Origin: a virus
Length of the DNA stretch: 64,000 bases
Virus record (IMG/VR): IMGVR_UViG_3300046330_000229
Coordinates: 18,266-82,265 of that record
Reading direction: 5' to 3' (one strand)
The notes under the pieces are model-generated. The model saw only the letters and a list, made by a program, of their open reading frames with translations. It did not search any database and was not told the origin of the DNA. How positions within the stretch are numbered: the first letter of the stretch is position 1; each line of letters starts with the position of its first letter. Positions 24,794 through 28,427 of this stretch are shown piece after piece. A program made the translations under genes and the position numbers.

Positions 24794-24821
24794 TCAAGTA
24801 AATAATCACTAATGCCGATAA
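24794..24821 (+). promoter_or_regulatory. sigma28 (FliA)-type promoter
   Basis: TCAAG...GCCGATAA (TCAA-N16-GCCGATAA); perfect -10, imperfect -35. Confidence 0.55.
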
Positions 24822-24923
24822 GTGAATAACTACATTATGTTAGCCGTTTTCTAATATCTTTATTTAAAATATATGCTTATAAGTTTTACACTGTCAGATA
24901 GCCGCTTGTGCTTTAAATTACAC

Positions 24924-24952
24924 TTGACACGGCACTACGATTGCAATACACT
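24924..24952 (+). promoter_or_regulatory. nested sigma70 and sigma54 promoter for the first early gene
   Basis: TTGACA-17-TACACT; the spacer is CGGCACTACGATTGCA (GG-N10-GC). Confidence 0.75.
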
Positions 24953-24989
24953 TAATCAAGATGCTCAAACATAACAAAAGGATAAAACA

Positions 24990-25445
24990 ATGAAATATTA
25001 CTCAAGATCAAATATGTACAAGTCAGGTCAGAACTTAGTCCTAAACATGAATAACATGGTTGCAACGTCTTACGAATGGTATACATTAGCTAAGCAATTG
25101 AATAATGGCACAATGCTATTAAATATTTATAACTATTCAAGTACAACGGTAAGACATTATTACAAGATGCGTAAACAGTTAACGAGCTTAGGTCTTGACA
25201 TAATTGAGATTGAAGCGCCAAAAGGTCTACAAGACTTAACTAGTGCTGTCAACTTATACAAGCGTTATATCACTGACTTGGAATCTGCCATTGATAAAAA
25301 GGGTAGCCGGTCGAGCACTAACGCAGTGCGTAGCGAGCTTATAAAGACATACAAGGAAAAAATACACTTTATTACTAGCATTCAATTTATGGAATCTAAA
25401 CCCTCGCCAATTGAACGAGTTATGTATAACATGGACGGTAAGTAA
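24990..25445 (+). CDS. early hypothetical protein
   Basis: 151 aa with AAGGA SD; ATSYEWY and YNYSSTTVRH motifs. Confidence 0.7.
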   Translation: MKYYSRSNMYKSGQNLVLNMNNMVATSYEWYTLAKQLNNGTMLLNIYNYSSTTVRHYYKMRKQLTSLGLDIIEIEAPKGLQDLTSAVNLYKRYITDLESAIDKKGSRSSTNAVRSELIKTYKEKIHFITSIQFMESKPSPIERVMYNMDGK

Positions 25446-25680
25446 CATGAGAAAACTATATAAATACAGTGAATTAGATCAGCGAGGTAAAGCTCGAGCC
25501 GCGCAATGTTATCAACACGGCTTAAAAGAGAACAAGTTCTTTTCTGATGATGACATACCGGATATATTAGTGTGCTACGAATTATGTCTCGACACTGACG
25601 AGGTGTCAGCTTATGATGTAAATGGTGAACTATTAGAATTAACTGAAGCTGAAGAAACAATATTTTTTAAGGACTAGGTT

Positions 25681-26169
25681 ATGAAACGACTAGCTTTAAT
25701 TTTGATTGCAGCATTGCCTTTGTCACTGTCTTATATTGATACACCGTCACAGCCTCGCAGTAACGAGTATGACATTATTCGAGAGCTTGTCTTGTCTCAA
25801 TCTATGACACCGCATGACGAGGCTATTAAGGCCATAGTTAAGGCCTCTAAAATATACAGCCTTGACAGTCGTGAGCTTACTGCCATTGCTGTCATTGAAA
25901 GTAGTTTCAATCCTAGAGTACGTACTATGACGAATCATAATGGTACACAAGACGTAGGTATGTTTCAAATAAACACTATCAATCATGTTACTTGTAAAGG
26001 TCTAGATCTGTCAGACGTTAGCGACAATGCTTTATGTGCTGCGAAGCTTTTATCTAAACACAAGGAAAGTCGTTCTGACTACTTAGGCGTTTATCATTCT
26101 AAGACACAAGATAAAAAAATGAAATATATTCAAAAAATAACTAAAGTACTTGCTAACACTAGCCGATAG
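25681..26169 (+). CDS. lytic transglycosylase (SLT domain) with signal peptide
   Basis: AIAVIESSFNP catalytic Glu, DVGMFQIN, LGVYHS; hydrophobic N-terminus. Confidence 0.88.
   Translation: MKRLALILIAALPLSLSYIDTPSQPRSNEYDIIRELVLSQSMTPHDEAIKAIVKASKIYSLDSRELTAIAVIESSFNPRVRTMTNHNGTQDVGMFQINTINHVTCKGLDLSDVSDNALCAAKLLSKHKESRSDYLGVYHSKTQDKKMKYIQKITKVLANTSR
26142..26169 (+). promoter_or_regulatory. sigma28-type promoter
   Basis: TAAA-N16-GCCGATAG, ~30 bp upstream of ORF 26201. Confidence 0.65.
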
Positions 26170-26864
26170 GTATAGTATAACAGTAACAAAGGACGCTTAA
26201 ATGAAAAAAGACTTAGAATTAGAATATAACTCATTCAAATATGATACAGACCGAGGTGAAATGTTAGTCATTGACGTTTTAAATAATGATGGTAAATTCA
26301 GCGAGTACGCTCTTAATCGTCACACTGGACTAAAAATCATATTAAGTCAATATGTATCATCTAGAGACTACAACGACATTATGATTATGGCTGAAAAATT
26401 TGAATATGAGTCGGGCGATAAAGATTATTTTGACAAACACGGATAATAGTAATATACTAATAAAAAAGGAATAAAAAATGGAATACTTACCACTAGCATT
26501 ATTTTTAGCACTAGCGCCTATCTTGTGGATAGCAATGATTTTAAATGAAGCTGATATCAAGCGACAAGATGATGAATTGAATAAAATCAATGGCTGGGCT
26601 GAATAATGATAAAACTACTTATATGCGGCGGCTTATTATTTTACGGCCATTGGATCATTGCCTTAATAGTATTATTTTTTGTAACAATTGACTAATTAAC
26701 AAAGGACTAGAAAATGAAATATGTAATTAAAGACAGAAACGATAAACAAGTGTTTGACGTAACATTCACCGACTTCAATCTTGCTGAAATATTTTTATGT
26801 GACACTTTAAAGCATAATTACGAGCGCACTAGATCATGGTACTTTATCGTTGAGGCTGCCTAGT

Positions 26865-27245
26865 ATGACTCATATAACATACAGCGAGCAATATGGTCGA
26901 GAGGTAACGAGTCTTAAGCTTATTCCAAAGGGCACTATCGTTGCCTTGTGTGAGCTTTTGGTCTTGTCTGAACAAGATACAAAAACGGTAGACAGTACAG
27001 ATCTTAAGTATTACGTTTTTAAATATAACGAGACACAAGATTGCTTAGTTATGGGCGAAGGTGAAATATTCAATCATAGTGATACGCCTAACACTGAATA
27101 CAAACTTGTCCAGCATGAGGGCAGATCTAAAATGCAATTTACTGCACTAGATGATATTCCAGCCGGCACTCAACTATTTACGGACTACAATGCTGATATT
27201 AAGGTCAATACAAACGACTATGTACAAAAGAATATGGTCGGATAG
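26865..27245 (+). CDS. SET-domain protein-lysine methyltransferase
   Basis: YGR..IPKGTIV N-terminal motif, IFNHSDTPN, ALDDIPAGTQLFTDY. Confidence 0.85.
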   Translation: MTHITYSEQYGREVTSLKLIPKGTIVALCELLVLSEQDTKTVDSTDLKYYVFKYNETQDCLVMGEGEIFNHSDTPNTEYKLVQHEGRSKMQFTALDDIPAGTQLFTDYNADIKVNTNDYVQKNMVG

Positions 27246-27517
27246 TCGTGTACAGTGTTATTATTTTTGCAATCTTTACAGGGGCTAGTATTGTTTTAGT
27301 CCCCTTGTGTCTTTTAGACGAGTCTTACAAGTGGGCTTTTTTGTTTTCCGTATCATTTTTAGTCAGTTTATTTATTACTTGCTTCGAGCTGTCTAGGCTC
27401 TAGTCATTCATACAAAAGTTCTACATAGTCATAACGGCTTGAATTTATTAATGTTTTACTACTAAAGCCTTTTTTCGTATATAAGTTTTACACTCAAATA
27501 TTTTTAGTTTTCAATGT

Positions 27518-27551
27518 TTTCAAGTACTTAGGCTATGGCATACCGACTGCA
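27518..27551 (+). promoter_or_regulatory. sigma54 promoter with adjacent IHF-like site
   Basis: TTTCAAGTACTTA (one mismatch to WATCAANNNNTTR) followed by TGGCATACCGACTGCA; upstream of ORF 27588. Confidence 0.65.
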
Positions 27552-27807
27552 TATAGTATATGTATCAACTAAACAAAGGACTAAAAAATGCAAATAATTC
27601 AAATAAGTTTTATAAAAAATGGTGTGTGGTTAGCTTCACACTATACTACTAATAAACATGATATGTCGTTGACTCCTGATAAGTCGTTGATAAGTCTTTT
27701 TGGTACGCATTCATTACCGACTCCGTATCCTGACTACACTTGCCCGCACGAGGTTGCTGAAATGATTCAGAATAAAAACCCACAAGCTATAGTTGAGGTT
27801 GTCTAAT

Positions 27808-28389
27808 ATGAGAAAATACGCTAATACAGAAAAATCAAGTGACAATATCGAGACTGTAATCGGACTTAAAGAAGCTCTAGAGGAGTTCATGGACTCCGTA
27901 AAAGAAAATGTCAATCCTTTTAGTGACGCATTCACTAATGAAGTGAATGAACTGCCTTGGGAGTCTTGCAGCGGCTTCATAGCACATAATCATAACAGGG
28001 GCGGTCTTGACTTTATATCAATCGAAAGTATTGACCGACTTGTAGGCAGCGGCGAGCACATGGGATTGAAAATCTCAAACTGGGTCAATGAACAATACGA
28101 CGAGACTTATAAAAACGTAGTTACTGAAAACCCTTCATTAGAAACTGACAGCAATGCGTTTTACGAGGCCTTAGACTCTAGTTTTTGTTCTGATTATGAT
28201 ACAGTAGCATTCCGTGTACGCGCTATGTATGAGGGCAGCGGTTTACTTGTGGTGCATGTTGGATATGACAAGGACGCACCTTATTTTCGATGGTCTTGTA
28301 AAGCGCATCAAGAGATTGAAATTAAATTCAAGACAATTGCTGGACTTAAAAGAAAATTAAAGGCTTTAATAAAAAAGATTGAAGTTTAG
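27808..28389 (+). CDS. hypothetical protein
   Basis: Acidic ~193 aa ORF in the early region. Confidence 0.65.
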   Translation: MRKYANTEKSSDNIETVIGLKEALEEFMDSVKENVNPFSDAFTNEVNELPWESCSGFIAHNHNRGGLDFISIESIDRLVGSGEHMGLKISNWVNEQYDETYKNVVTENPSLETDSNAFYEALDSSFCSDYDTVAFRVRAMYEGSGLLVVHVGYDKDAPYFRWSCKAHQEIEIKFKTIAGLKRKLKALIKKIEV

Positions 28390-28400
28390 TAAAATAAAAC

Positions 28401-28427
28401 TAAAGTATTTTAAAACGTAGCCGATAA
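28401..28427 (+). promoter_or_regulatory. sigma28 (FliA) promoter, consensus match
   Basis: TAAA-N15-GCCGATAA in an intergenic gap, followed by GAGG SD and ATG. Confidence 0.8.

What the first reader, a model, noticed from the sequence alone, without database searches (positions are those of the whole stretch)
24794..28427. Early region wired to three host sigma factors, including flagellar sigma28 (FliA)
Seen: TAAA-N15-GCCGATAA at 28401, TAAA-N16-GCCGATAG at 26142 and TCAA-N16-GCCGATAA at 24794, each facing downstream genes. Sigma54 sites lie at 24930 and 27536 and a sigma70 promoter at 24924. Known: TAAA-N15-GCCGATAA is the FliA consensus, and in Bdellovibrio FliA drives much of the non-replicating attack-phase programme. 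Phage early promoters are normally sigma70-type. Inference: the phage can start transcription in a motile, non-growing host state and may read the host life-cycle phase through which sigma factor is available.
Basis: partly seen in the sequence, partly recalled or inferred. Interest (0 to 1): 0.8.

Follow-up and report, generated by a model that had tools for sequence, protein, structure and literature searches.

The report
Flagellar-type promoters in a lake phage
Three good copies of the promoter that bacteria use for late flagellar genes (sigma-28 type), plus two sigma-54-type boxes and an ordinary promoter, sit in front of small accessory genes of an uncultured 82-kb freshwater phage, so part of the phage is probably read by alternative host sigma factors; no transcript data exist and the host is unknown.

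Summary
All motifs are at the stated coordinates. GCCGATA alone occurs at background level. The two-box motif does not. All three sense-strand GCCGATA of the 47-kb plus arm lie between genes or at a gene end, each with T[AC]AAGT 19-20 nt upstream (per-site chance about 0.003). Three or more such sites on one strand within 4 kb arose in 0.3% of simulated genomes.

Only the two boxes are shared; the spacers differ, as expected of a promoter. They fit the FliA consensus TAAAGTTT-N11-GCCGATAA at 13, 13 and 15 of 16 positions.

Sigma-54-type boxes are also enriched: 13 against 4.1 expected, seven of them within 4 kb. Distant relatives of the phage carry dense arrays of them.

Most promoters of this arm are ordinary: about 20 exact TTGACA-N17-TAnnnT. 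So the phage is not run by sigma-28.

The relatives have no sigma-28 cluster, and the genes downstream are orphans. I found no phage sigma factor, FlgM or sigma-54 activator.

A Bdellovibrio host and the "early" label are unsupported.

My best reading is host sigma-28 promoters for an accessory module (about 0.5).

This scan has already noted larger sigma-28-type promoter sets in many other uncultured phages.

The parts
24794..24821 (+). Sigma-28-type site 1: TCAAGTAA-N12-GCCGATAA (13 of 16). It lies 168 nt before the ATG at 24990. Its -35 box overlaps the -35 box of the divergent minus-strand sigma-70 promoter.
26142..26169 (+). Sigma-28-type site 2: TAAAGTAC-N12-GCCGATAG (13 of 16). It is embedded in the last codons of the SLT-like gene, 31 nt before the ATG at 26201.
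28401..28427 (+). Sigma-28-type site 3: TAAAGTAT-N11-GCCGATAA (15 of 16). It lies 20 nt before the ATG at 28448. It is the only recognisable promoter in front of the gene run 28448-33287.
24924..24952 (+). Sigma-70 promoter TTGACA-N17-TACACT for the operon that starts at 24990.
24930..24945 (+). Sigma-54-type box CGGCAC-N5-TTGCA (10 of 11) inside the spacer of the sigma-70 promoter, 44 nt before the ATG.
27536..27551 (+). Sigma-54-type box TGGCAT-N5-CTGCA (9 of 11) in a 184-nt gap with no TTGACA promoter, 36 nt before the ATG at 27588.
24878..24892 (+). 15-mer TATAAGTTTTACACT, copy 1, 53 nt before the GG of the sigma-54 box. Candidate activator or operator site.
27480..27494 (+). The same 15-mer, copy 2, 57 nt before the GG of the second sigma-54 box.
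24769..24797 (-). Divergent sigma-70 promoter TTGACA-N17-TATAGT (11 of 12). Its -10 box ends 10 nt before the ATG at 24759, which implies a nearly leaderless mRNA.
24550..24759 (-). Small basic orphan ORF (69 aa from the ATG), divergent from the module. Candidate regulator; no family hit.
26430..26458 (+). Sigma-70 promoter TTGACA-N17-TATACT (11 of 12) before the small membrane-protein genes and the SET-domain gene.
23846..24115 (.). Array of four sigma-54-type boxes on both strands in about 770 nt of gene-poor DNA just upstream of the module. Relatives have matching arrays.
24990..28389 (+). Genes served by these promoters: orphans of 151 and 76 aa, a secreted SLT-like transglycosylase, an 81-aa orphan, small membrane proteins, a 126-aa SET-domain protein, and orphans of 72 and 193 aa.

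Best explanation
The three sites are working promoters of the sigma-28 (FliA/SigD/WhiG) class. The phage has no detectable sigma factor of its own, so the host's flagellar sigma factor most likely reads them. They sit in a strain-specific module of small orphan genes (24.8-33.3 kb) in the middle of the plus-strand arm of an uncultured 82-kb freshwater phage.

This module has mixed wiring:
- an ordinary sigma-70 promoter at 24924, and another at 26430;
- sigma-28-type promoters at 24794, 26142 and 28401;
- sigma-54-type boxes at 24930 and 27536, each behind the same 15-mer.

The rest of the arm uses about 20 canonical TTGACA-N17 promoters. Virion genes use a phage-specific motif, TTAACATATAT.

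The expected consequence is that some accessory genes, above all the run 28448-33287 behind site 3, are transcribed in step with host FliA activity. That means in flagellated, motile cells in which FlgM has been exported.

Shown here: the motifs, their non-randomness, their orientation and distance to genes, the absence of a recognisable phage sigma factor, and the enrichment and conservation of sigma-54 boxes in this phage group.

Inferred: that RNA polymerase with sigma-28 (or sigma-54) starts transcription there, that the host has these factors, and any physiological logic.
For: 1. Both boxes and the spacing fit TAAAGTTT-N11-GCCGATAA (consensus quoted in PMC7286023) at 13, 13 and 15 of 16 positions with spacers of 12, 12 and 11. 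Measured as TAAAG to CCGATA, the spacing is N16, N16 and N15; B. bacteriovorus has TTAAG-N16-CCGATA.
2. The motif is non-random.
3. In the alignment of the three sites only the two boxes and a short GT(A/G) tail are conserved. The spacers are unrelated. This is the pattern of selection on a two-box promoter, not of a recent duplication.
4. All three face genes. Sites 2 and 3 leave 31 and 20 nt to the ATG, with a Shine-Dalgarno sequence in between. Other promoters of this phage leave similarly short leaders.
5. There is no exact TTGACA promoter between 26430 and 33692, so site 3 fills a promoter gap.
6. No Sigma70_r2 or T7-type RNA polymerase (control uninformative) match in six frames; the only Sigma70_r4 match is weak (E 0.015, in an AAA ATPase). 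PHROGs and Pfam scans of about 40 ORFs gave no sigma hit.
Against: 1. There are only three sites, and the motif was chosen after it was seen.
2. The cluster is absent from the four related genomes (PolA 50-65% identical), which show background counts. The downstream genes have no homologues there or in the viral and metagenome collections. Conservation therefore cannot be tested.
3. Site 1 lies 168 nt from the next gene, has TCAA instead of TAAA, and overlaps another promoter.
4. The host is unknown, so the presence of FliA is unverified. The nearest cultured relative by PolA infects Flavobacterium, a genus without flagella or FliA. However, the phage's strong Shine-Dalgarno sequences (53% of starts against 11% at random positions) and its TTGACA promoters argue against a Bacteroidota host.
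5. Free sigma-28 is normally held by FlgM, and no phage counter-factor was found.
6. There is no RNA evidence.
Confidence: 0.5

Rival explanations
1. The sites are promoters, but a phage-encoded and so far unrecognisable sigma-like factor with sigma-28-like specificity reads them, not host FliA. The factor and its promoters would then form a self-contained module.
For: The cluster is confined to one strain-specific module full of orphan genes. The phage clearly has at least one promoter class of its own (TTAACATATAT) with no recognisable factor, so cryptic transcription factors must exist. Scan notes report phage-encoded sigma-28-type factors in other phages (unchecked).
Against: Six-frame searches found no Sigma70_r2 match and only a weak r4 match inside an AAA ATPase. 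PHROGs and Pfam gave nothing sigma-like. The low-confidence models of the 193-aa and 151-aa orphans contain beta strands and are not sigma-like.
Confidence: 0.15
2. The sites are inactive or accidental in this host. Either they are chance matches in A+T-rich spacers, or they are promoter cassettes that arrived with accessory genes by recombination from phages of other hosts. The module would then be transcribed from the sigma-70 promoters at 24924 and 26430 by read-through.
For: GCCGATA alone is at background. Relatives lack the cluster. Sigma-70 promoters upstream could serve the whole block, and no convincing terminators separate the units. Sites 2 and 3 share extra bases (AACTAAAGTA, TAGCCGATA, GTATA), as copies of one cassette would.
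Against: The joint statistics make pure chance unlikely. The unrelated spacers between conserved boxes argue for maintained function.
Confidence: 0.25
3. The motif is the binding site of a DNA-binding protein other than RNA polymerase (an operator or a recombination site), and its likeness to the sigma-28 consensus is a coincidence.
For: The control region 24773-24952 holds other repeats (TACACT five times, a shared 15-mer), which shows that phage regulators act here.
Against: The motif has two boxes with variable spacer sequence, exactly the sigma-28 spacing, one orientation only, and always faces genes. It has no dyad symmetry.
Confidence: 0.05

Closest known systems
Class 3 flagellar promoters read by sigma-28 (FliA of E. 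coli, Salmonella and P. aeruginosa; consensus TAAAGTTT-N11-GCCGATAA, PMC7286023), and the FliA-type attack-phase promoters of Bdellovibrio bacteriovorus (TTAAG-N16-CCGATA, PMC3627812)
   Same: The -10 box GCCGATA[AG], the -35 box T[AC]AAGT, the spacer length, one orientation, and a position just upstream of genes.
   Different: The sites are in a phage genome, in front of orphan, SLT-like and other accessory genes rather than flagellar or attack-phase genes. Dependence on sigma-28 is untested and the host is unknown.
Sigma-54 (RpoN) -24/-12 promoters and non-promoter sigma-54 binding sites (E. coli ChIP map, PMC4591121; listed, not read here)
   Same: GG and GC exactly 10 nt apart, with 9-10 of 11 consensus positions. 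The boxes are strongly enriched, and some sit 27-44 nt before start codons.
   Different: No activator (bEBP) gene is detectable in the phage. One box lies inside a sigma-70 spacer. The neighbouring dense two-way arrays have no gene to serve.
Promoter cassettes that flank orphan genes in plastic regions of T4-type phages (PeSL elements; recalled from memory and from a scan note, not checked)
   Same: Short conserved promoter units between fast-evolving small genes that related phages lack.
   Different: Those cassettes are sigma-70 early promoters with a stem-loop. Here the boxes are of sigma-28 type and no stem-loop is present.
Phage timing programmes that use phage-encoded sigma factors (SPO1 gp28 and gp33/34, T4 gp55; textbook knowledge)
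   Same: Distinct promoter classes within one phage genome. This phage has at least a TTGACA class and a TTAACATATAT class.
   Different: No phage sigma factor is recognisable here, and the sigma-28 and sigma-54-type boxes match host consensus sequences, not phage-specific ones.

Membership tests
Sigma-28 (FliA/SigD/WhiG) promoters | -10 box GCCGATAA with the CGA core | tested here: met
   GCCGATAA, GCCGATAG and GCCGATAA.
Sigma-28 (FliA/SigD/WhiG) promoters | -35 box TAAA(GTTT) | tested here: met
   TAAAGTAC and TAAAGTAT at sites 2 and 3. Site 1 has the weaker TCAAGTAA.
Sigma-28 (FliA/SigD/WhiG) promoters | Spacer of 11 +/- 1 nt between the two 8-mers (TAAA-N15/16-GCCGATAA) | tested here: met
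   Spacers of 12, 12 and 11.
Sigma-28 (FliA/SigD/WhiG) promoters | More frequent than chance, on the coding strand and upstream of genes | tested here: met
   figures under the observation check. Site 1 is 168 nt from its gene.
Sigma-28 (FliA/SigD/WhiG) promoters | Transcription starts a few nt after the -10 box and depends on sigma-28 | not testable with these tools
   No RNA run is listed for this DNA. It needs 5'-end mapping or in vitro transcription.
Sigma-28 (FliA/SigD/WhiG) promoters | A sigma-28 family protein is available in the infected cell | tested here: inconclusive
   None is encoded by the phage. The host is unknown.
Sigma-28 (FliA/SigD/WhiG) promoters | Conserved in related genomes | tested here: not met
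   Four relatives show only background counts. The module's genes are absent from them.
Sigma-54 (RpoN) promoters | GG at -24 and GC at -12 exactly 10 nt apart, within TGGCAC-N5-TTGCA | tested here: met
   24930 scores 10 of 11 and 27536 scores 9 of 11.
Sigma-54 (RpoN) promoters | Enriched over background, and present in related genomes | tested here: met
   13 against 4.1 expected. Four in intergenic sense DNA against 0.09 expected. Arrays are present in three of the four relatives, G001, G003 and G004.
Sigma-54 (RpoN) promoters | An AAA+ activator (bEBP) with an upstream binding site | tested here: inconclusive
   The phage has no Sigma54_activat domain (best E 0.03, in a MoxR-like gene). 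An identical 15-mer lies 53 and 57 nt upstream of both boxes and is a candidate site. Host activators are unknown.
Sigma-70 promoters | TTGACA-N17-TAnnnT upstream of a gene | tested here: met
   24924-24952 scores 10 of 12. It belongs to a class of about 20 exact TTGACA-N17 sites. TTGACA occurs 17 times in upstream DNA against 2 expected.

The most novel reading that the evidence does not exclude
This lytic freshwater phage splits one accessory-gene module among three host RNA polymerase holoenzymes. It uses the two sigma factors of flagellar cascades (sigma-54, then sigma-28) to tie expression to the host's motility or cell-cycle state. Overlapping promoters would act as switches: a silent sigma-54 complex sitting in the spacer of a sigma-70 promoter, and a sigma-28 -35 box sharing bases with the -35 box of a divergent sigma-70 promoter for a leaderless regulator gene.
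Probability: 0.2. Interest if true: 0.8.

Novelty: new variant of a known kind. Interest (0 to 1): 0.5.

Why it matters
Phage transcription is usually described as host sigma-70 first, then phage-encoded factors or polymerases. If a phage with no sigma factor of its own uses the host's flagellar sigma-28, and sigma-54, for some of its genes, then its gene expression depends on whether the host is motile. Flagellated, slow-growing cells are common in lakes, so this would bear on infection outcomes there. It would also bear on host prediction, because the host would need fliA and rpoN. My literature searches found no paper describing sigma-28-dependent phage promoters. This scan has noted larger sets in many uncultured phages, so the phenomenon may be widespread. 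This phage is a small, mixed example, not the best test case.

Tried and rejected
- Strain variation: four freshwater runs laid on 23700-28700 are almost identical. The only differences are 24584 C>A and 24949 C>A, so selection on the boxes cannot be tested.
- Expression: no RNA holder is listed for this DNA.
- Closer relatives of the module: the 193-aa protein has no relatives in viral contigs or metagenome contigs, and the SET-domain protein has none in metagenome contigs. megablast of 24000-29000 against cultured phages found nothing.
- Orthologous promoters in relatives: the genes of this block are not shared. The GCCGATA hits in relatives have the wrong spacing or lie inside genes.
- Host prediction: there are no tRNA genes. 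The best PolA hit is a Flavobacterium phage at 43%. NrdA is about 40% identical to many Bacteroidota. Portal relatives lie in MAG bins of Flavobacteriaceae, Bacteroidales, Melainabacteria and Proteobacteria. The protein atlas gave only viral clusters. No consistent signal came out.
- A pattern search through handles L114-L117 scanned whole MAGs instead of the phage contigs and was uninformative.
- Cryptic sigma factor: structure models of the 193-aa orphan (pLDDT 36) and the 151-aa orphan (pLDDT 60) and a Foldseek search gave nothing significant. Weak STAS/RsbV-like rows at E 0.05 are only a lead. PDB sequence searches were empty.
- Rejected readings: the boxes as sigma-70 -10 variants, IHF sites or DnaA boxes (judged by eye), and a Bacteroidota-type TAnnTTTG promoter grammar (no TTTG-containing word among the words enriched in upstream DNA).
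Full report
**Context.** The window is bases 18266-82265 of an 82,265-bp IMG/VR virus record with matching ends, about 36% G+C. It is abundant in many freshwater metagenomes. Genes on the minus strand (portal, terminase, capsid-type) flank a 47-kb plus-strand arm (window 12948-60238). This arm carries many small genes plus ribonucleotide reductase, a DnaB-like helicase, a family A DNA polymerase, an Erf-like annealing protein, a PD-(D/E)XK nuclease and a Mom-like protein. 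The finding lies in the middle of this arm.

All three sites are exactly where stated:
- TCAAGTAA-N12-GCCGATAA at 24794-24821.
- TAAAGTAC-N12-GCCGATAG at 26142-26169. This site overlaps the last codons and the stop of a secreted SLT-like transglycosylase gene.
- TAAAGTAT-N11-GCCGATAA at 28401-28427.

Each is on the coding strand, 168, 31 and 20 nt before the next start codon. The sigma-54-like boxes at 24930 and 27536 and the sigma-70 promoter at 24924-24952 are also there.

The two-box motif is not at background.
- TAAA-N14-17-GCCGATA occurs twice against 0.16 expected, and nowhere else in the genome.
- I scored every position against the published consensus TAAAGTTT-N11-GCCGATAA (PMC7286023) with spacers of 10-12. 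The genome has five sites with at least 13 of 16 matches and a near-perfect -10 box. The mean in 1000 first-order Markov genomes was 1.9.
- The best site scores 15 of 16 (P 0.023).
- Four sites lie on one strand within 3.6 kb. Three or more within 4 kb arose in 0.3% of simulations. The fourth, at 26394, is GGCGATAA inside an ORF and is probably chance.
- All three sense-strand GCCGATA of the plus arm fall in its 7.4% non-coding or gene-end DNA. Each has T[AC]AAGT 19-20 nt upstream, a word with a per-site chance of about 0.003.
- When the three sites are aligned, only the two boxes and a short GT(A/G) tail are shared, and the spacers are unrelated. That is the signature of a maintained two-box promoter, not of a recent duplication.

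These tests follow a choice made after seeing the motif. Even so, I take the motif as real.

**What else is there?** The plus arm is not unusual overall. TTGACA is the most enriched word in upstream DNA: 17 against 2 expected. About 20 sites have an exact TTGACA, a 17-nt spacer and a TAnnnT -10 box, mostly just before genes. Virion genes use a different, phage-specific motif, TTAACATATAT, with eight exact copies on the minus strand. The sigma-28-type sites are therefore a small third class confined to one block.

Within that block there is no exact TTGACA promoter between 26430 and 33692. Site 3 is the only recognisable promoter in front of the roughly 17 genes from 28448 to 33287. The genes served are orphans plus an SLT-like transglycosylase and a 126-aa SET-domain protein.

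**Sigma-54.** Boxes with GG and GC 10 nt apart and at least 9 of 11 consensus positions number 13 against 4.1 expected. Seven lie between 23846 and 27536, and none of 1000 simulations was as extreme. Four sit in plus-arm intergenic sense DNA against 0.09 expected. Three of them (24930, 27536, 54954) are 27-44 nt before a start codon.

The boxes at 24930 and 27536 each follow the same 15-mer, TATAAGTTTTACACT, at 53 and 57 nt, with diverged sequence in between.

Four distant relatives (PolA 50-65% identical) lack the genes of this block. Three of them (G001, G003, G004) carry arrays of textbook boxes, up to eleven within 2 kb, several perfect, on both strands, and next to a poly-G tract as in this phage; G002 shows only scattered boxes.

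So binding of sigma-54 polymerase is a conserved trait of the group, and the host very probably has RpoN. Whether the two gene-proximal boxes fire is open. I found no activator gene. The box at 24930 lies inside the spacer of the sigma-70 promoter, so the two polymerases could not bind together.

**Who reads the sigma-28-type sites?** I found no sigma factor, phage-type RNA polymerase (its control search rang in no genome) or FlgM in six-frame Pfam searches, and none in PHROGs or Pfam scans of about 40 ORFs. Models of the two largest orphans of the block are not sigma-like, but their confidence is low. Host sigma-28 is therefore the simplest reader (about 0.5). A cryptic phage factor is second (about 0.15). 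A silent or accidental motif remains possible (about 0.25).

**The main weaknesses.**
- The relatives have no sigma-28 cluster.
- The strains in four lakes are nearly identical, so conservation could not be tested.
- No RNA data exist.
- The host is unknown.

**The Bdellovibrio idea.** FliA does drive two thirds of the attack-phase promoters in B. bacteriovorus, with the consensus TTAAG-N16-CCGATA (PMC3627812). Two of the three sites here share that N16 spacing. But spacing of plus or minus one is within normal sigma-28 tolerance, and nothing else points to that host. The best cultured PolA match is a Flavobacterium phage at 43%. Portal relatives sit in MAG bins of four phyla. The phage's Shine-Dalgarno use (53% of starts against 11% at random positions) and its TTGACA promoters argue only against a Bacteroidota host.

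**Local architecture.** The 212-nt divergent gap 24778-24989 looks like a control region.
- An 11-of-12 sigma-70 promoter points leftward to a 69-aa basic orphan ORF. Its -10 box ends 10 nt before the ATG, so the mRNA would be nearly leaderless.
- The -35 box of that promoter shares bases with the -35 box of sigma-28-type site 1.
- TACACT occurs five times within 175 nt, overlapping promoter elements.

**Verdict.** This is a new variant of a known kind: known promoter classes in an unusual carrier. My searches found no paper on sigma-28-dependent phage promoters. Notes of this scan, which I did not check, report much larger sigma-28-type promoter sets in many other uncultured phages, some with their own sigma-28-type factor. 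This three-site case adds the combination with sigma-54 boxes, not a first sighting.

Noticed in passing
window 2191-2201, 3269-3279, 10570-10580, 12870-12880, 24543-24553, and three more copies upstream of the window: There are eight exact minus-strand copies of TTAACATATAT, most of them directly before the Shine-Dalgarno sequence of virion genes. This is probably a phage-specific late promoter with no recognisable factor. The copy at 24553 starts at the stop codon of the small minus-strand ORF and points into the gene-poor sigma-54 array, so it may drive a non-coding or antisense transcript. Relatives lack this exact word.
   Followed up: partly
window 23846-24115; G003 44016-44458 and 46067; G004 427-2408; G001 48042-48117 and 57046: Dense two-way arrays of sigma-54-type boxes (TGGCA[CT]G-N4-TTGCA) lie in gene-poor DNA next to a poly-G tract. 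They are present in three of the four phages that share only 50-65% PolA identity, although the flanking genes are not conserved.
   Followed up: partly
window 24773-24952: TACACT occurs five times on the + strand within 175 nt (about 0.06 expected) and overlaps the -10 and -35 elements of the divergent promoters. A sixth copy lies in the shared 15-mer at 27489. These are candidate operators for a phage regulator, perhaps the 69-aa basic ORF at 24550-24759.
   Followed up: partly
window 54954-54969: A further sigma-54-type box, CGGCGC-N5-TTGCA, sits in an intergenic gap 27 nt before the ATG at 54997. Another, at 58460, overlaps the -10 box of a sigma-70 promoter.
   Followed up: partly
window 33692, 41006, 53672 and others: Several exact TTGACA-N17 promoters end only 7-11 nt before the start codon, so this phage seems to make many leaderless or very short-leader mRNAs.
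   Followed up: no
window 24949: The only variant seen in the promoter region among four lake populations is C>A in the -10 hexamer of the sigma-70 promoter (TACACT to TAAACT), found in one run.
   Followed up: no
window 24990-25445: The 151-aa orphan that is the first gene behind the nested sigma-70/sigma-54 promoter gives weak fold matches (E 0.05, TM 0.3-0.4) to STAS-type anti-sigma antagonists (RsbV, TM1442, MlaB). The model is poor (pLDDT 60), so this is only a lead.
   Followed up: partly
window 12962-12989, minus strand: TAACGTTA-N10-TCCGATAA (13 of 16 to the sigma-28 consensus) lies antisense in the first codons of the ClpP-like gene and points toward the late operon that starts at 12771. 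It is probably chance.
   Followed up: no
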